42,713 bases of DNA from a virus. Taxonomy: Duplodnaviria > Heunggongvirae > Uroviricota > Caudoviricetes. Position 1 is the stretch's first letter. Each line of letters opens with the position of its first letter. The position numbers were made by a program, and so were the translations under genes. Below, piece by piece: positions 33,080 through 38,883 of the stretch. Below the pieces are notes generated by a model. It did not search any database, was not told where the DNA came from, and worked only from the letters and a program-made list of their open reading frames with translations. Location: positions 1 through 42,713 of IMG/VR virus record IMGVR_UViG_2636415959_000003. One strand, given 5' to 3'.

Positions 33080-33559
33080 ATGGATAAAATTAATTACCCA
33101 CCCCTGTTTGAGCCAGGGCTCCATGACATGGATGAAGCTGGATTAAAATCGTATTGTGTCGATTGCTTTCCTTCATCATCCAGGCGAGGCATGCTATACT
33201 GTAATTTTATACAGCTACTCGAATCTATTCGAGAATTATCTGCTCAATATGGCTGTTTTACAGAAATATGGGTTGATGGTTCATACACCACGTCTAAACC
33301 AGAGCCTGATGATATTGATATTTTGTTGGTATGTGACTATAGCAATATAAACTCAATACCTGTCATGCTTCGGGGCCGCGTCGATAATTTGCTTGACCGA
33401 AACTACATCAAACAAAACTACAAAATTGATGTCCTACTACTCATGAAGAATTTAGATGACCCTAACTATGATTATGAGTACTGGCGTAGCTACTGGCGCG
33501 GTTGGTTTGGTTTTGATCGCAGTGAAAACCCGAAAGGGTTAGTGAGGATTTTTTTATGA
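33080..33559 (+). CDS. Nucleotidyltransferase-fold protein (minimal Pol-beta-like NTase), cargo gene A
   Basis: 159 aa; WVDGSYTTSKPEPDDIDILLV fits the hG[GS]-x9-13-DhDh NTase signature, with a later acidic residue (KIDVLLL). AT-rich; AAGG RBS. Confidence 0.55.
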   Translation: MDKINYPPLFEPGLHDMDEAGLKSYCVDCFPSSSRRGMLYCNFIQLLESIRELSAQYGCFTEIWVDGSYTTSKPEPDDIDILLVCDYSNINSIPVMLRGRVDNLLDRNYIKQNYKIDVLLLMKNLDDPNYDYEYWRSYWRGWFGFDRSENPKGLVRIFL

Positions 33560-34488
33560 ATGATAAATCAATGTTTAAAAATTGCGATAAACGCATTGAT
33601 TTCATTCAAAAAGAAGTCGATGCAATGAAGCAAAACAAAACCAGGTCCTTTGCTGACATGCTTCTTTATCGCTCCATGGATTCTCATCTGAGCGATTTGA
33701 AGGCCGAAAAATTAAAGCAAGATAGTCGGCACCCACTTATCGATTTTTTTGAGCTGCGGCTGAAAGGCTCTGAGGTTGACTTTGGCTCTATTCCTTTAGA
33801 GCTGCTTGGGGCTATTTCAACAAATCTTGCAGCGCTAATACAAAGAGCAACACACAAAATTGCCTCAGGCAAGGACTCAAAAAAAGTTCCCTACGACGTG
33901 AAAAGCTCCTTAAACCTCAGGCTGGCTGATTTATCCCCTGGGTCTACAAAATTGGGCGTCACCTTCTCTACAGGAATAGCAGAATTAGTAGAAACAGTAC
34001 CCAGCAAGGCTGTAAAAGGCATATTCGATTTGTTGTTAAGCGATGACGACAACAACTTCATGAATCACGTCGCTGAAATTGGATACAATTCCACTGTAAG
34101 CCTTAAGAGAATCGTAGAGGAATGCGATAAACACAACTTAACATTTGATGCAAGTTGGACCGGTCCATTTAGTAATGGCACCAAGGTGGCAACTATTGAC
34201 TCCAATAAAATTAAGTACTTGGTGAGTAGACTTACATCAACCATTTCATCCCCTCCCATTACTGAAACGGTTACAGGCGAACTGGTCGTTCTATCCAAAT
34301 ATGGGAAGCTGGAGCTTGATGTTGGTGGTGAACATTTAAAGGCTTCCTATCCGATTGAAATGCTAGATTTAATACAAAAAAAACACAAGGTCGGACAGAT
34401 TGTTTCTCTTTTAGTGGAGACTACTGAGATTCACAATGATCGCATAGGTCTGTACCGTAAAAACCATCTTGTTAAATCGGTTCTTTAA
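33556..34488 (+). CDS. Hypothetical 310-aa protein, cargo gene B (partner of the NTase-fold protein)
   Basis: ATGA overlap with gene A (33556-33559); no TM segments. One Rx4H match (RSMDSH), not diagnostic. Confidence 0.55.
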   Translation: MNDKSMFKNCDKRIDFIQKEVDAMKQNKTRSFADMLLYRSMDSHLSDLKAEKLKQDSRHPLIDFFELRLKGSEVDFGSIPLELLGAISTNLAALIQRATHKIASGKDSKKVPYDVKSSLNLRLADLSPGSTKLGVTFSTGIAELVETVPSKAVKGIFDLLLSDDDNNFMNHVAEIGYNSTVSLKRIVEECDKHNLTFDASWTGPFSNGTKVATIDSNKIKYLVSRLTSTISSPPITETVTGELVVLSKYGKLELDVGGEHLKASYPIEMLDLIQKKHKVGQIVSLLVETTEIHNDRIGLYRKNHLVKSVL

Positions 34489-34628: not shown

Positions 34629-34821
34629 GTCCTTTCCGCACTATCTCAGCTGCATCCCTGTTCACACCCTTACCTATCACGTTTCCCGTTTCCTTCCGGT
34701 ACCGTTCCAGCTTGTCGATGATGTTTTGCTGGGTCATAGGTAAATCTGCCAGTGACAACTCCATGACCGCCCGCCCCATGGCGTGAACCATCATGTTCAC
34801 TCTTTCTTCATCCAAGTCCAT
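34624..34821 (-). CDS. Hypothetical small protein (65 aa) divergent from PL
   Basis: ORF ending at the second terminator; no convincing RBS inspected. Confidence 0.35.
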   Translation of the reverse strand: MDLDEERVNMMVHAMGRAVMELSLADLPMTQQNIIDKLERYRKETGNVIGKGVNRDAAEIVRKGQ

Positions 34822-34860
34822 TACCCACTCCTTTTTGATGTTTTTTTCAGCATATCACTT

Positions 34861-34965
34861 ATGCCACCAAAAAATAAATCAACATAAAAATCAACAGTAA
34901 ACGATTAAATCAACAAAATAAATCCACAAGGTGTTGACCTACAAATCCACATGATGTTTAATTAC
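34861..34965 (+). promoter_or_regulatory. Left operator/promoter region (OL/PL)
   Basis: Plus-strand TTGACC-17-TTTAAT with ATCCACATGATG between -35 and -10 (same motif as in OR), plus three AAATCAACA repeats upstream. Confidence 0.55.
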
Positions 34966-35026
34966 TCCATCGAAACGAAACATCGACAGCTGAGCGAAGT
35001 TAGCCAGCGGCGGACAGCAAGTCGCC

Positions 35027-35039
35027 TGCTTTTTAACAA
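35027..35039 (+). promoter_or_regulatory. boxA-like element TGCTTTTTAACAA in PL leader
   Basis: 12 of 13 match to the rrn boxA TGCTCTTTAACAA as recalled; about 70 nt downstream of the PL -10. Confidence 0.35.
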
Positions 35040-35378
35040 CATGCAGATTTACAGCGTCAATGACCTGTTAAGACCCCTACACGTAAACGTGCTGTATCAC
35101 CGGGTGCGATCCGGTCGGTGAGAGAGTATCCCCGCGCGAGAGCGAGAACGGCGTGAGAACGGGCAACACTGGCAGGGAGTTGGCGCTGACCAATACAGGG
35201 AATGTTATGGGATGTGGTGAAGGGTTCATGGACGGGAATATGTCGCACGTAAAGCGGCGAGGCCCGAGGAGCTATTGCCGAAGATAAGTAGGCCGAATCG
35301 GGTCGAAATGGGTCTCCCACCTACCACAGCACCAAAGCATTTCTCCCGCATCAGCGGGTAACTAAGTGGAGAGTAAGT

Positions 35379-35567
35379 ATGCACAAGTGTCAATTCTGTG
35401 GGTACTTTCTGGCATCTGAAGAGATGCAGAGAATATCTGTAAACATGGTTGGCAGGCCTTACAACATCTGCATTCCATGCTCAGAAAAGTACAAAAAGAA
35501 AGGCCTGTGGGATTCGGCAAAAAACGATATCGACTGGAAAGCACTTCCATGCGTCGATGAGACATAA
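35379..35567 (+). CDS. Small zinc-ribbon-like protein (CxxC…CxxC)
   Basis: 62 aa; first ORF of the PL operon; GGAGAG RBS. Confidence 0.5.
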   Translation: MHKCQFCGYFLASEEMQRISVNMVGRPYNICIPCSEKYKKKGLWDSAKNDIDWKALPCVDET

Positions 35568-35600
35568 CCGCATCAGCGGGTAACGACAGAGGGTAAGGGG

Positions 35601-35897
35601 ATGATCGACGACATCAAGCGCATCGACTCAATGATAAATGCGCTTCGCAATATGAAACAGGACATCAAGCGTCAGCAGAAACTAAGTGAAATAAACAGTT
35701 TAGACCTGTCGCCGAAGCAAGCTCAAAAGCGCAATGCCGATGCTGACTGGATTGCGATGGAACAGATTAAGCGTCGGCATGAGCTGCACGCTCTGTCTGT
35801 TGAGCTTGGGTTCGCTGAGCGCCGGGAAAGTTATGCTCCATTTGAATTAACTGACGGGTGGCACCGATTCGACCACAAGCCGCGCGAACCTCAATAG
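35601..35897 (+). CDS. Hypothetical protein (98 aa)
   Basis: AGGGTAAGGGG RBS; followed by a terminator. Confidence 0.5.
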   Translation: MIDDIKRIDSMINALRNMKQDIKRQQKLSEINSLDLSPKQAQKRNADADWIAMEQIKRRHELHALSVELGFAERRESYAPFELTDGWHRFDHKPREPQ

Positions 35898-35918
35898 CCG
35901 CCTAACCAGCGGCTTTTT
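35897..35918 (+). terminator. Intra-operon rho-independent terminator (tL1-like)
   Basis: GCCGC-ctaacca-GCGGC followed by TTTTT directly after the stop at 35897. Confidence 0.55.
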
Positions 35919-36052
35919 CATACCTGGAGTCATTTACGAGTGGCTCAAGTTATGACAACCGGCGGCCATCCACCGCCCATTGAAACACTGAATAAATGCG
36001 TTGAAGTCTTGTATTAACCGTTCCGTTCGCCGCGATAAGGCCAAGAGGATTT

Positions 36053-36262
36053 ATGAGTGATTTGGAGTTGGGCTTAAAGATATACGCATTATGGTTTGTC
36101 GGGACGTTTCTGCTCGGCATAGCAATCAACTCGCTGACGAAAAAAGAACATCGCCAGCCACTTTCAAAACTAGCCATTGACCATGTACGCATGTCTTCCG
36201 CAATAACCATTGTGGGCCTGATTGTGTGCGGTATGGGCTGGTTCTTATTCAAGGTGGTGTGA
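36053..36262 (+). CDS. Small membrane protein (two predicted TM helices)
   Basis: 69 aa; hydrophobic segments IYALWFVGTFLLGIAI and ITIVGLIVCGMGWFLF. Confidence 0.5.
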   Translation: MSDLELGLKIYALWFVGTFLLGIAINSLTKKEHRQPLSKLAIDHVRMSSAITIVGLIVCGMGWFLFKVV

Positions 36263-36263
36263 G

Positions 36264-36422
36264 ATGACAGTCACCCACAACGGCAAGCAGTACACCGCCA
36301 AAAAGCTCAACGATAACGAGTGGCAGCTGACGTCGGTATCTAACCCGCGTGAAAAGCTGACGATGAACCGCTGGCATATGAAGCTGGCTGGCCTCCTGGA
36401 ACAGGTTGAGGTGAAGGCATGA
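36264..36422 (+). CDS. Hypothetical small protein
   Basis: ATG at 36264, coupled to upstream stop. Confidence 0.4.
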   Translation: MTVTHNGKQYTAKKLNDNEWQLTSVSNPREKLTMNRWHMKLAGLLEQVEVKA

Positions 36423-37956: not shown

Positions 37957-37965
37957 GGAGTGATC

Positions 37966-38883
37966 ATGAGCTTAACCCTTGTTGATTTCGTCAAACAACA
38001 GGAGCCGCTTTTCATTAAGGCGGCCACTGACGAGCGGATGGTGTGGGCGAAGGAAAGTCAGTTCGCCATCCAGCTATTTCAGAACAACGACTACCTCGCG
38101 AAAGTCGCTTTCCAGAACCAGACCAGCACACAGAACGCAATCATCAACGTTGCGGCTATCGGTATTTCGCTAAACCCAGCTCAGAAGCTGGCTTACCTGG
38201 TTCCGCGTAAAGGGGCTATTTGCCTAGACATCAGTTACATGGGCCTGATGCACATCGCGCAGCAGTCTGGCGCCATTAAGTGGTGCCAGTCGGCTATTGT
38301 TCGAAGAAACGACCAGTTCCGCCGCGAGGGGCTCGATAAGCCGCCAATCCACATCTACAACGACTTCGATACTGAAGAGCAGCGCGGGGACATCGTAGGC
38401 GCGTATGTAACGGTAAAAACTGACGATGGTGATTACCTCACCCATACGATGCGCATCGATGCCATCTACTCCATCCGTGACCGGTCTGAAGCATGGAAGA
38501 AGTACAAATCTGACAACAGCAAGAAGTGTCCATGGGTCACCGATGAAGAGCAGATGATCCTAAAGACGGTCGTGAAGCAGGCAGCAAAATACTGGCCTCG
38601 ACGTGAGCGCCTGGATGCCGCCATCGACCATGTTAATACCGAGGGTGAGGAAGGTATCAACTTTACAGCAGAGCGTCAGCCTGAGCGCGATATAACGCTG
38701 CTTAGCGAAGCCACGCAGAAAGAGATAAACGACCTCCTTGTCTCTTTGGATAAGACATGGGATGCCGATCTTCTCCCTCTCTGTTCACGCATTTTCAAAC
38801 GCCCTATCTCGCAGCCAGCCGACCTAACAGAAATGGAAGGTGTTAAGGCTCTCGGGTTCCTCAGGCAAAAGGCGGCAGCATGA
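37966..38883 (+). CDS. Single-strand annealing protein: RecT-family core with lambda Bet-like C-terminal tail
   Basis: Core has RecT-like motifs (…[18 protein letters not shown]…, [10 protein letters not shown]). C-terminal about 80 aa ([11 protein letters not shown]…[17 protein letters not shown]…[13 protein letters not shown]) resembles the lambda Bet C-terminus as recalled. AGGAG RBS. Confidence 0.75.

What the first reader, a model, noticed from the sequence alone, without database searches (positions are those of the whole stretch)
35346..35584. Identical 17-nt hairpin motif CCGCATCAGCGGGTAAC 15-16 nt upstream of two consecutive start codons
Exact copies at about 35346-35362 and 35568-35584 each form a 4-bp stem with a tetraloop (CCGC-atca-GCGG) and sit at the same distance from the RBS and ATG of the first two PL-operon genes. 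This spacing suggests a shared translational operator or RNA-binding-protein site rather than chance.
Basis: seen in the sequence. Interest (0 to 1): 0.4.

Follow-up and report, generated by a model that had tools for sequence, protein, structure and literature searches.

The report
Conserved hairpin junction for swappable phage genes
The repeated 17-base hairpin is the invariant core of a ~49-base leader segment that, in phi80-like phages, sits in front of whichever of dozens of unrelated small genes occupies the first slot of the early-left operon; this phage has two copies because it carries two such genes in tandem.

Summary
CCGCATCAGCGGGTAAC occurs exactly twice (35346-35362, 35568-35584), and each copy ends 16 nt before an ATG. 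The window is a phi80-like phage. phi80 has one copy, in front of N. The window differs by a precise 222-bp indel, equal to the repeat spacing, which holds a 62-aa zinc-ribbon ORF plus one repeat copy.

In other viral contigs the 17-mer is the core of a ~49-nt block: AAAGCATTTCTC, then the 17-mer, then GACAGAGGGTAAGGnnATG.
- At least 48 unrelated ORF families follow it, starting at the ATG.
- About 39 different leader types precede it, giving 117 left/right combinations in 132 contexts.
- Its left arm is the 3' strand of a covarying long-range leader helix (P1).
- The hairpin stem is essentially invariant, and the 17-mer is more conserved than nearby synonymous sites.

Best reading: it is a portable hairpin-plus-ribosome-site module that also serves as the homologous-recombination joint for gene-cassette exchange, and it was duplicated by cassette stacking. 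I found no evidence for a specific operator or binding protein. It is not a terminator and matches no Rfam family. The 14-nt match to a type I-E CRISPR repeat hairpin is probably a generic GC hairpin. I class it as a new variant of a known kind, of moderate interest.

The parts
34934..34962 (+). PL promoter (-35 TTGACC 34934-34939, -10 TTTAAT 34957-34962). The whole unit is transcribed from here.
   Evidence: Mapped from the phi80 GenBank annotation (JX871397), which is 99.7% identical here. The sequence was read.
35027..35091 (+). phi80-type nutL: boxA (35027-35035) and the 'nut core' hairpin CACGTAAACGTG (35080-35091). It is a separate feature from the motif.
   Evidence: phi80 record annotation transferred by identity. 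Only 24 of 107 leader contexts in relatives have a boxA-like sequence, and 8 have this core.
35199..35212 (+). 5' strand of the long-range leader helix P1 (GGAATGTTATGGGA).
   Evidence: It pairs with 35329-35343 in the minimum-free-energy fold of the leader. Covariation across 67 distinct contexts: 14 pairs, 6 with changes on both sides, and a top pair of GC 32 / CG 13 / AU 12. The score was 0.141 against 0.090 in shuffles (0 of 500 reached it) and at most 0.055 for slid registers.
35329..35343 (+). 3' strand of P1. Its last part (AAAGCATTTC) is the conserved 'left arm' of the junction block.
   Evidence: In this window the top pair is broken (A35212 opposite G35329; phi80 has A-U). This is consistent with a recombination tract starting about 18 nt left of the 17-mer.
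35346..35362 (+). 17-mer copy 1. The hairpin spans C35345-G35358 (5 bp, AUCA loop) and is followed by UAAC.
   Evidence: It is invariant in 126 of 126 collected instances by construction. In anchor-selected relatives it is exact in 53 of the 63 that carry an exact or variant copy.
35363..35378 (+). Ribosome-site spacer of the zinc-ribbon cassette (TAAGTGGAGAGTAAGT, SD GGAG at 35368-35371). This version diverges from the consensus.
35379..35567 (+). 62-aa CxxC...CxxC zinc-ribbon ORF (phrog_19863, function unknown). This is the extra cassette that phi80 lacks.
   Evidence: It is 99.2% identical to HK225_040. It is absent from phi80.
35568..35584 (+). 17-mer copy 2. The hairpin spans 35568-35579 (4 bp). 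It has no left arm, because the ORF's stop codon TAA abuts it.
35585..35600 (+). Consensus ribosome-site spacer GACAGAGGGTAAGGGG before the N start codon.
35601..35897 (+). phi80-type 'N' gene (98 aa). It is one of at least 48 alternative occupants of the slot.
35896..35918 (+). Intrinsic terminator tL1A. It marks the right-hand conserved boundary of the variable slot.
   Evidence: phi80 annotation and terminator scan. In about 100 of 109 relatives, homology resumes within -29 to +61 nt of the cassette's stop codon.
35363..35584 (+). The 222-bp segment present here and absent from phi80. It is equally well described as 35346-35567. It is bounded by the 17-bp direct repeat.
   Evidence: The megablast match to phi80 comes in two pieces that cover 1179 of 1401 nt. 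The missing 222 nt equal the repeat spacing.

Best explanation
The 17-mer is the invariant core of a ~49-nt module, AAAGCATTTCTC-CCGCATCAGCGGGTAAC-GACAGAGGGTAAGGnn-ATG. In phi80-like temperate phages of Enterobacteriaceae this module joins the structured PL leader RNA to the first gene of the early-left operon.

Shown:
- That first gene is a hypervariable single-ORF slot. It is bounded on the left by this module and on the right by the tL1A terminator.
- Leader types and cargo ORFs reassort almost freely across the module.
- The window carries two cargo ORFs in tandem, a zinc-ribbon gene and then N, each preceded by a copy. It differs from phi80 by exactly one 222-bp repeat unit.

Inferred, with strong support:
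- The duplication arose when a cassette was gained or lost by homologous or single-strand-annealing recombination within the conserved block. These phages encode RecT, and about 30 bp of homology is enough for such recombinases.

Inferred, with weaker support:
- In the mRNA, the small GC hairpin acts as a structural boundary. Together with helix P1, it locks up the upstream sequence so that the purine-rich ribosome-binding region stays single-stranded whatever leader or ORF is attached.
- It may also act as a stabilising 5' or intercistronic stem-loop.
- This would be why the module is kept under purifying selection and remains available as a recombination joint.
For: - **phi80 comparison.** phi80 has one copy, in front of N. 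The window adds 222 bp, which equals the repeat spacing.
- **The cassette assorts independently.** The same zinc-ribbon cassette is flanked by both 17-mers in HK225 and three viral contigs, with 3 different left and 4 different right neighbours.
- **Census.** Conservation runs from -13 to the ATG and drops to background on both sides.
- **Cargo diversity.** 122 downstream ORFs fall into 48 unrelated families, almost all starting 16 nt after the 17-mer.
- **Reassortment.** 132 unique contexts comprise 39 left types and 56 right types in 117 combinations.
- **Right boundary.** Homology resumes at the stop codon or tL1A in about 100 of 109 loci.
- **Position.** The slot lies between cI/PL and gp44/kil.
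- **Constraint.** Pairwise identity is 0.988 for the 17-mer against 0.854 at third codon positions of gp44 about 0.7 kb away.
- **Cross-genus conservation.** The hairpin is unchanged in 9 of 10 hits in Citrobacter, Enterobacter, Scandinavium and Trabulsiella.
- **Variant spectrum.** Variants are mostly in the loop. Stem variants are rare, and 3 of 5 loci with one keep pairing as G.U.
- **Left arm.** It is explained as the 3' strand of the covarying helix P1.
- **Fold predictions.** The hairpin is predicted to form at p = 0.97 in 106 natural contexts. Deleting it lowers SD-AUG accessibility from 0.51 to 0.45, with a decrease in 86% of contexts.
- **Other junction types.** These place a different hairpin, or a terminator hairpin, before the same ribosome site.
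- **Recombination machinery.** RecT of phi80 promotes mosaic formation, and about 30 bp is cited as the minimum for Red-beta recombination (PMC3945230).
Against: - There is no compensatory covariation in the hairpin, so its RNA role rests on invariance and on a few G.U variants. By distinct variant types, the loop-versus-stem contrast is weak (5 types in 4 loop sites against 4 types in 8 stem sites).
- The predicted gain in accessibility is small and depends on the folding model.
- 13 of 76 anchor-selected relatives lack the element, and mEp213 has the same leader end and TAAC...SD without the 20-nt hairpin segment. The hairpin is therefore dispensable for expressing a first gene.
- The 17-bp repeat alone, and the 24-29 bp of identity available on each side of the zinc-ribbon cassette, are at or below the length usually quoted for efficient RecT/Red recombination.
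- Repeated homogenisation by recombination could mimic purifying selection.
Confidence: 0.6

Rival explanations
1. Translational operator. A trans-acting phage or host RNA-binding protein recognises the hairpin and co-regulates translation of whatever gene follows.
For: - The whole 17-mer is strongly conserved at the sequence level, including UAAC outside the stem, with no compensatory stem changes.
- Its distance to the ATG is fixed at 16 nt.
Against: - The hairpin does not overlap the SD or AUG.
- There are only 1-2 sites per genome, so a dedicated regulator would serve a single site.
- The cargo is unrelated in 48 families, which rules out autoregulation by the product.
- No gene family within +/-4 kb tracks the element's presence.
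- Natural variation is concentrated in the loop, which is the part such proteins usually read.
Confidence: 0.12
2. RNA-processing landmark. The structured leader, with P1 enclosing a minihelix or tRNA-like domain ending in ...ACCA, is cut by RNase P or RNase E. The hairpin then becomes the protective 5'-terminal stem-loop of the mature first-gene mRNA. This would uncouple the mRNA from the nut/antitermination RNA, as RNase III cleavage does in the lambda N leader.
For: - The hairpin sits 1-2 nt after the 3' strand of the covarying helix P1.
- Many leader types end in a hairpin plus a 7-nt strand plus ACCA, and ARAGORN calls a tRNA-like fold ending 13 nt before the motif in 5 loci.
- phi80 is known to induce a small RNA (M3) that is an RNase P substrate (cited in PMC11143913 and PMC5499578).
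- That 5' stem-loops stabilise E. coli mRNAs is from my own knowledge (ompA).
Against: - The Rfam tRNA model does not hit any leader, and ARAGORN finds nothing in the window.
- I could not verify where M3 RNA maps.
- The second copy in the window follows an ORF, not a leader domain.
- Stx phages carry the same leader domain without the hairpin.
Confidence: 0.15
3. Vestigial terminator. The hairpin is a decapitated intrinsic terminator that lost its U-tract and now has no RNA function. It persists only because it lies inside a patch that is continually homogenised by recombination.
For: - Internal junctions in relatives have a real terminator hairpin plus T6 followed by ACGC(CCGTCAGC)GGGTAAC and the same ribosome site. 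Deleting GCGGCC-T6-AC from GGCCGCATAACGCGGCCTTTTTTACGCGGGTAAC would give almost exactly the 17-mer.
- The longer version, CCCCGCATCAGCGGGG, is a common generic terminator stem in 111 unrelated viral contigs.
Against: - The 17-mer is more conserved than both arms of the same patch and than synonymous sites nearby.
- Stem changes are rare, and 3 of 5 loci with one preserve pairing as G.U.
Confidence: 0.15
4. CRISPR-repeat mimic. The hairpin imitates the Cas6e-binding stem-loop of type I-E CRISPR repeats. It would act as an RNA anti-CRISPR, or recruit Cas6e to cut the leader.
For: - CCCGCATCAGCGGG is identical to the inner 14 nt of the terminal repeat of the E. coli K-12 I-E array, GTGTTCCCCGCATCAGCGGGGATAAACCG.
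- The following UAAC loosely resembles AUAAAC.
- It lies in the first early transcript, next to small genes of unknown function. This is the setting described for Racrs (PMC10651486).
Against: - The stem is 1-2 bp shorter and lacks the base pair at the cleavage site.
- The 8-nt 5' handle AUAAACCG is not conserved.
- No full-length repeat-like version turned up. The 16-mer CCCCGCATCAGCGGGG occurs in 111 viral contigs, many of them terminator-like, and is never followed by ATAAACCG.
- The consensus I-E loop is GCCA, not AUCA.
- There is no Rfam CRISPR-DR hit.
Confidence: 0.04
5. Chance repeat with no biological meaning.
For: About 0.05 exact 17-mer direct repeats are expected somewhere in a 42.7-kb random sequence (my arithmetic), so such a repeat is not impossible.
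Against: - It sits at homologous positions in more than 120 contigs.
- The spacing equals the indel relative to phi80.
- It is more conserved than nearby synonymous sites.
Confidence: 0.01

Closest known systems
PeSLs (promoter-early stem-loops), the mobile regulatory cassettes of T4-type phages (Arbiol et al. 2010, PMC2839356; PMC4122927)
   Same: Both are short conserved intergenic regulatory motifs that contain a stem-loop. [quoted passage not shown] In both cases, recombination between copies shuffles genes.
   Different: PeSLs combine a strong sigma-70 promoter with a functional terminator, and they occur many times across hyperplastic regions. This element has no promoter and no U-tract. 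It consists of a hairpin plus a ribosome-binding site, occurs once or twice per genome at a single slot, and abuts a structured leader RNA.
Susskind-Botstein 'linker' model of lambdoid module exchange: short conserved sequences at module boundaries used for homologous recombination (my own knowledge). Relaxed recombination by Rad52-like recombinases is described in PMC3945230.
   Same: A conserved ~49-nt sequence lies exactly at a mosaic boundary. Leader and cargo reassort across it, in phages that encode RecT.
   Different: The model proposed linkers as a general feature of lambdoid genomes. This is one specific junction, and its sequence has plausible expression functions of its own.
Lambda N leader: nutL, an RNase III-processed structure, and the N ribosome site (my own knowledge)
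   Same: It occupies the same genomic position. A long structured leader lies between PL/nutL and the first gene, and RNA structure next to the ribosome-binding site could influence first-gene translation.
   Different: There is no sequence or structural homology. Here the first gene is interchangeable (N in only 6 of 122 instances), so N-specific autoregulation cannot explain the element. No RNase III-type long duplex is evident.
5'-terminal or intercistronic stabilising stem-loops, such as the ompA 5' UTR hairpin and REP-type hairpins (my own knowledge)
   Same: It is a small, stable GC hairpin (-8.9 kcal/mol) just upstream of a ribosome-binding site, or just after an ORF.
   Different: No 5' end or decay data exist for this RNA. 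The hairpin would be 5'-terminal only if the leader is processed.
RNA anti-CRISPRs / solitary repeat units (Camara-Wilpert et al. 2023, PMC10651486)
   Same: It is a promoter-proximal non-coding hairpin in a phage early transcript, with a 14-nt identity to a type I-E repeat hairpin.
   Different: The similarity covers only part of the repeat. The stem is shorter and the handle is not conserved. A control scan shows the hairpin to be a generic terminator-type stem.

Membership tests
PeSL-type mobile regulatory cassette | A conserved intergenic motif flanks the indels and replacements between closely related phages. | tested here: met
   The 222-bp indel relative to phi80 is bounded by the repeat. 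The same cassette occurs with different neighbours. There are 117 left/right combinations.
PeSL-type mobile regulatory cassette | Contains a strong sigma-70 early promoter. | tested here: not met
   No promoter-like site was found in 34800-36300 apart from the annotated PL upstream, and none at the motif.
PeSL-type mobile regulatory cassette | The stem-loop is an effective terminator, and there are many dispersed copies. | tested here: not met
   There is no U-tract after either copy. There are only two copies in the window and one or two per relative.
Intrinsic (rho-independent) terminator | A GC-rich hairpin immediately followed by a U-tract. | tested here: not met
   A hairpin is present, but it is followed by UAACGACAG or UAACUAAG. 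The terminator scan lists tL1A (35896-35914) but neither motif copy.
Lambdoid nut site (boxB) | A hairpin near boxA in the PL/PR leader that is matched to the phage's own N protein. | tested here: not met
   The phi80 nutL boxA and core are annotated about 260-320 nt upstream (35027-35091). The element accompanies 48 unrelated first genes, with N in only 6 of 122. Only 24 of 107 leaders have a boxA-like sequence.
Translational operator of an RNA-binding repressor (MS2 coat or T4 RegA type) | The site overlaps or occludes the SD or AUG of the regulated gene. | tested here: not met
   The hairpin ends 20 nt before the ATG. The SD lies 4-12 nt downstream of the 17-mer.
Translational operator of an RNA-binding repressor (MS2 coat or T4 RegA type) | A cognate binding protein exists. 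| not testable with these tools
   No gene family within +/-4 kb co-occurs with the element. Host factors and distant phage genes could not be examined.
CRISPR solitary repeat unit / Racr (type I-E) | Similarity to a host repeat over its full length, including the 5'-handle part. | tested here: not met
   Identity is contiguous for 14 of 29 nt only. AUAAACCG is replaced by UAACGACA. No repeat-like full version turned up in viral contigs. There is no Rfam CRISPR-DR hit.
CRISPR solitary repeat unit / Racr (type I-E) | The repeat-type stem-loop geometry bound by Cas6e: a 6-bp stem with cleavage at its 3' base. | tested here: not met
   The phage stem is 5 bp (copy 1) or 4 bp (copy 2), and the basal C-G pair is missing. 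Binding itself cannot be tested here.
Integron attC-type cassette recombination site | A long imperfect inverted repeat (about 57-141 nt) at the 3' end of each cassette, plus a dedicated integrase. | tested here: not met
   The palindrome is 12-14 nt long. Single cassettes end at the tL1A terminator, not at a copy of the motif. No cassette-associated recombinase gene was seen among neighbouring families.
Any curated RNA family (Rfam 15) | A covariance-model match at or near the gathering score. | tested here: not met
   The whole window gave no hit at gathering threshold. At E<=10 in 34900-35950 there were only spurious eukaryotic hits. The leaders of 14 relatives were not hit by any family.

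The most novel reading that the evidence does not exclude
The hairpin is a functional mimic of the Cas6e-binding stem-loop of type I-E CRISPR repeats. It shares 14 contiguous nt with the terminal repeat of the E. coli K-12 array. On this reading, the very first early transcript of these phages either titrates Cas6e, acting as an RNA anti-CRISPR embedded in an mRNA leader, or uses Cas6e to cut the leader off the first-gene mRNA. The hypervariable ORF behind it would then be an anti-defence gene slot.

A second unexcluded novel reading is that the 17-mer is a dedicated cassette-exchange site, not merely a patch of homology.
Probability: 0.05. Interest if true: 0.8.

Novelty: new variant of a known kind. 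Interest (0 to 1): 0.5.

Why it matters
Whether mosaic joints in lambdoid phages arise at conserved 'linker' sequences or by illegitimate recombination followed by selection is an old question. This locus is a clear, quantifiable case of a conserved linker. A ~49-nt block is more conserved than synonymous sites, and about 39 leader types and about 56 cargo ORFs reassort across it.

It also changes how the phi80 'N' position should be read. It is a plug-in slot for the first gene expressed after infection or induction, and it is filled mostly by small proteins of unknown function. Such a slot is where anti-defence or host-takeover genes would be expected.

The module of P1-closed leader, hairpin and strong ribosome site is a natural 'insulated expression socket' that could be tested directly and reused. 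None of this is established experimentally.

Tried and rejected
- **Rfam.** The whole window at gathering threshold, the locus at E<=10, and the leaders of 14 relatives all gave nothing relevant.
- **tRNA/tmRNA.** ARAGORN found none in the window. It made tRNA-like calls in only 5 of 119 relatives' leaders, and the Rfam tRNA model did not confirm them.
- **Covariation in the hairpin.** I scanned with the hairpin masked in 185,579 species genomes and in viral contigs, and also used an anchor-gene sample. There were no compensatory double changes. The structure therefore cannot be proven this way.
- **An extended SD-sequestering structure** (left arm UUUCU pairing with AGAGG). It is predicted in short constructs, but the z-scores are only -1.2 to -2.4. 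The left arm is better explained as the 3' strand of P1.
- **CRISPR-repeat mimicry.** The control scan showed the longer hairpin is a generic terminator stem.
- **Terminator.** Rejected, because there is no U-tract.
- **boxB.** Rejected, because nutL is annotated elsewhere and N is only one of 48 cargo families.
- **Cargo function.** Pfam, PHROGs and NCBIfam gave almost only 'unknown'; the named hits were Nmad5 and DUF2528.
- **A co-occurring binder gene.** None was found within +/-4 kb.
- **Literature.** The only text hit for the sequence was the K-12 CRISPR repeat. The paper on phi80 M3 RNA (PMC430417) is not held, so I could not map M3 RNA.
Full report
**1. Observation**

CCGCATCAGCGGGTAAC occurs exactly twice in the window, at 35346-35362 and 35568-35584 on the + strand. 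No further match with up to three mismatches occurs on either strand. Shuffles gave a mean of 0.14 matches, and one shuffle in 100 reached two. Each copy ends 16 nt before an ATG: 35379, which starts a 62-aa ORF, and 35601, which starts a 98-aa ORF.

The CCGC/GCGG stem with an AUCA loop is real. Copy 1 has a fifth pair, C35345-G35358. Copy 2 is preceded by A and has four pairs. The isolated hairpin folds at -8.9 kcal/mol, z = -4.25.

**2. What the locus is**

The region is 99.7% identical to phage phi80. The features are as follows.
- PL lies at 34934-34962.
- The annotated nutL boxA and core lie at 35027-35091.
- The second ORF is the phi80 'N' gene.
- The tL1A terminator lies at 35896-35918.

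The phi80 match comes in two pieces and lacks 222 nt of the query, which is exactly the distance between the two motif copies. Reading phi80 directly shows a single copy in front of N (...AAAGCATTTCTCCCGCATCAGCGGGTAACGACAGAGGGTAAGGGGATG). The window therefore differs from phi80 by one precise repeat unit: the 62-aa CxxC...CxxC zinc-ribbon ORF plus one 17-mer.

Phage HK225 has the same ORF (99.2% identity) flanked by the same two 17-mers, but with different genes on both sides. In all, five loci carry this cassette between two 17-mers, with three different left neighbours and four different right neighbours.

**3. Census**

Aligning the contexts shows that conservation extends from -13 to the ATG. 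The consensus is (C)CAAAGCATTTCTC - CCGCATCAGCGGGTAAC - G/T ACAGAGGGTAAGGnn - ATG, and identity drops to background on both sides.

The ORFs that start at that ATG fall into 48 unrelated families among 122 instances, almost all starting 16 nt after the 17-mer. phi80 N accounts for 6 of them and the zinc-ribbon ORF for 4. Nearly all have no known function; the named hits were Nmad5 and DUF2528.

The slot lies between cI/PL on the left and a conserved tL1 region, gp44 and kil on the right. In about 100 of 109 loci, homology to the window resumes within -29 to +61 nt of the cargo's stop codon. So what is exchanged is essentially a single ORF.

Clustering 120 nt to the left and 150 nt to the right of the block in 132 unique contexts gives 39 left types, 56 right types and 117 combinations. 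One leader type is joined to 22 different cargos, and one cargo to 13 different leaders.

The element is also present elsewhere.
- It occurs in prophages of Citrobacter, Enterobacter, Scandinavium and Trabulsiella.
- It occurs in 111 of 5,426 complete E. coli genomes. Many of the listed hits are laboratory strains such as DH5alpha and NEB 5-alpha, presumably with phi80 derivatives.

**4. Anatomy**

*The left arm.* It is not just a spacer. AAAGCAUUUC is the 3' strand of a long-range helix, P1. Its 5' strand (GGAAUGUUUUGGG-N) lies 86-250 nt upstream; in the window, 35199-35212 pairs with 35329-35343.

I tested this on 67 distinct contexts. Each was an artificial concatenate of the two strands, and the three nucleotides that form the top of the helix were not used to find the 5' strand.
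- 14 pairs were 92.5% paired.
- Six pairs changed on both sides.
- The top pair was G-C in 32, C-G in 13 and A-U in 12.
- The covariation score was 0.141, against 0.090 in shuffles (0 of 500 reached it) and at most 0.055 for slid registers.

The leader therefore contains a genuine structured RNA domain closed by P1, with variable contents. Some versions have a T-arm-like GGTTCGAATCC, a 7-bp acceptor-like stem and ACCA, and ARAGORN calls these tRNA-like. The Rfam tRNA model does not hit them.

The same domain, without the hairpin, occurs at 95% identity in a non-coding stretch of Stx phages.

In the window itself, the top P1 pair is broken: A opposite G, where phi80 has A-U. The window's GCACC matches a different leader type. 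This suggests that the imported tract began about 18 nt to the left of the 17-mer.

*The hairpin.* It follows P1 after 1-2 nt. It is not a terminator, because there is no U-tract.

*The right arm.* It is a strong double SD, GAGGG...UAAGG.

*Other junction types in relatives.* Internal junctions keep ...GGGTAAC-(G/T)ACAGAGGGTAAGG-ATG but precede it differently.
- Some have a bona fide terminator, with covarying stems and T6, followed by ACGCCCGTCAGCGGG, which forms a different small hairpin.
- Others have a terminator followed by ACGCGGG.
- mEp213 has the leader end CCAAAGC joined directly to TAAC...SD, without the 20 nt ATTTCTCCCGCATCAGCGGG.

**5. Constraint**

I drew a sample through the unrelated anchor gene gp44. 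Of 76 informative loci, 53 had the exact 17-mer, 10 had a variant and 13 had none.

Pairwise identity in this sample was 0.988 for the 17-mer. It was 0.854 at gp44 third codon positions and 0.948 for the 43-nt element as a whole.

A second sample was anchored only on the arms. Its 120 loci were about 80% canonical.

Pooling both samples gives the following.
- Loop changes occur in 16 loci, of 5 distinct kinds.
- Stem changes occur in 5 loci, of 4 kinds.
- Three of those five loci keep pairing as G.U (CUGC twice, and GUGG in L155).
- No compensatory double change was found.

The stem is thus the most conserved part. By distinct variant types, though, the contrast with the loop is modest, and covariation cannot prove the hairpin.

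Across 106 natural contexts the hairpin is predicted to form with p = 0.97. Deleting it lowers predicted SD-AUG accessibility from 0.51 to 0.45. This effect is small and depends on the folding model.

**6. Interpretation**

*Shown.* The 17-mer is the core of a conserved junction at a hypervariable first-gene slot. The two copies in this window bracket an extra cassette.

*Strongly inferred.* Cassettes are gained, lost and swapped by homologous or annealing recombination within the conserved block, with the tL1 region serving as the right-hand homology. These phages encode RecT; a RecT-like ORF lies at 37960-38883. RecT of phi80 has been shown to drive mosaic formation on short, diverged homologies, and about 30 bp is cited as the minimum for Red-beta (PMC3945230).

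The block offers about 43-49 nt of homology. The zinc-ribbon cassette has only 29 nt of shared sequence on the left and 24 nt on the right, which is marginal. Loss of the cassette by annealing between the 17-bp repeats is equally possible.

*Weakly inferred.* The module persists because it is a context-independent expression socket. P1 and the hairpin lock up the upstream sequence, and the ribosome site stays open. The hairpin may also stabilise the mRNA.

**7. Rivals**

The invariance of the sequence, including UAAC, leaves this open. Against it: the hairpin does not overlap the SD or AUG, the cargo is unrelated, the variation is in the loop, and no neighbouring gene co-occurs with the element.
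- **Processing landmark.** This idea is linked to the tRNA-like leader. phi80 induces M3 RNA, an RNase P substrate (PMC11143913, PMC5499578). The reading is attractive but unverified, because I could not obtain the M3 sequence.
- **Vestigial terminator.** This is plausible as the origin of the hairpin, but it does not explain why the 17-mer is more conserved than its arms.
- **CRISPR mimic.** A text search turned up that CCCGCATCAGCGGG is the inner hairpin of the terminal repeat of the E. coli K-12 type I-E array. However, the stem is shorter and the handle is not conserved. The 16-mer version occurs in 111 unrelated viral contigs, many of them terminator-like, and is never followed by ATAAACCG. 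I treat this as a low-probability lead.

**8. Comparison with known systems**

In the way it works, the closest known systems are the PeSL cassettes of T4-type phages (PMC2839356) and the Susskind-Botstein linker idea. It is not a member of the PeSL family: it has no promoter, no terminator activity and no dispersed copies. It is not a boxB, an attC, a terminator or any Rfam family (see the membership table).

**9. Novelty and limits**

I found no description of this element. The only literature hit for the sequence is the CRISPR repeat, and the phi80 and HK225 records leave the element unannotated. I rate it a new variant of a known kind and of moderate interest.

The limits are these.
- All functional statements are inferences.
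- The collection scans were capped, so the counts are lower bounds.
- Counts of loci are not counts of independent events.
- The leader-type and cargo-type clusters depend on my thresholds.

Noticed in passing
window 33080-34488 (+): Two overlapping ORFs (159 aa, DUF6932; and 310 aa) lie between the cI region and PL. They match both components of the PADLOC candidate defence system PDC-M63 (A: E = 4e-41; B: E = 7.5e-45). They occupy the position where phi80 has gene 40A and lambda has rexAB.
   Followed up: partly
window 35199-35343 (+), within the PL leader 34970-35345: A structured leader RNA domain is closed by a covarying 14-bp helix, P1. Its interior differs between about 39 leader types. 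Some interiors have a T-arm, an acceptor-like stem and ACCA, and ARAGORN calls these tRNA-like. It matches no Rfam family. It might correspond to the phi80-induced M3 RNA, an RNase P substrate, but I could not check this.
   Followed up: partly
window 35027-35343; locus L123 2501-2817 (Stx phage vB_EcoP_phi346 and about 170 other Stx phages): 317 nt of the phi80-type leader, comprising a boxA-like sequence, the nut core and the P1 domain, recur at about 95% identity in an unannotated or spuriously annotated stretch of Stx phages. The stretch lies downstream of a restriction-modification gene pair and a terminator. The match ends at AAAGCATTTC, just before where the hairpin would be.
   Followed up: partly
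window 35601-35897 (phi80 'N'): The gene annotated as antiterminator N in phi80 occupies a slot that in relatives holds at least 47 other unrelated small ORFs. N is present in only 6 of 122 instances. Only 24 of 107 leader contexts have a boxA-like sequence, and 8 have the phi80 nut core. How most of these phages read through tL1A is therefore unclear.
   Followed up: partly
window 35212 and 35329: The top pair of P1 is mismatched in this phage (A opposite G), whereas phi80 has A-U. The window's 3' strand (GCACC) belongs to a different leader type (GGGC/GCACC). This is a likely scar of the recombination that brought in the zinc-ribbon cassette.
   Followed up: yes
loci L157, L158, L166 (type B); L176, L181, L187, L191 (type C): Internal cassette junctions in relatives have an intrinsic terminator, with different stems in different loci and T5-T6, followed by ACGC(CCGTCAGC)GGGTAAC and the same ribosome site. 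This suggests the 17-mer hairpin and these terminators share an origin.
   Followed up: partly
locus L218 (E. coli K-12 MG1655, 2877400-2878800, - strand): The terminal, iap-proximal repeat of the K-12 type I-E CRISPR array has the loop variant GTGTTCCCCGCATCAGCGGGGATAAACCG. Its inner 14 nt equal the phage hairpin. The other repeats have the loop GCCA, and one has GUUA.
   Followed up: yes
locus L330 1100-1170 and 1690-1750 (phage mEp213): mEp213 has the same leader end (…CCACCAAAGC) joined directly to TAAC-TGACAGGAG-ATG of its N gene, without the 20-nt ATTTCTCCCGCATCAGCGGG. Its 72%-identical zinc-ribbon homologue directly follows N. That homologue is followed by a hairpin plus a T-rich run, GCCGCATAGTCGGCCTTCTTTT.
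   Followed up: partly
locus L004 8444-8588: The SraC/RyeA and SdsR/RyeB small-RNA locus lies a few kb from one of the prophage copies of the element. This is presumably host DNA next to the prophage end.
   Followed up: no
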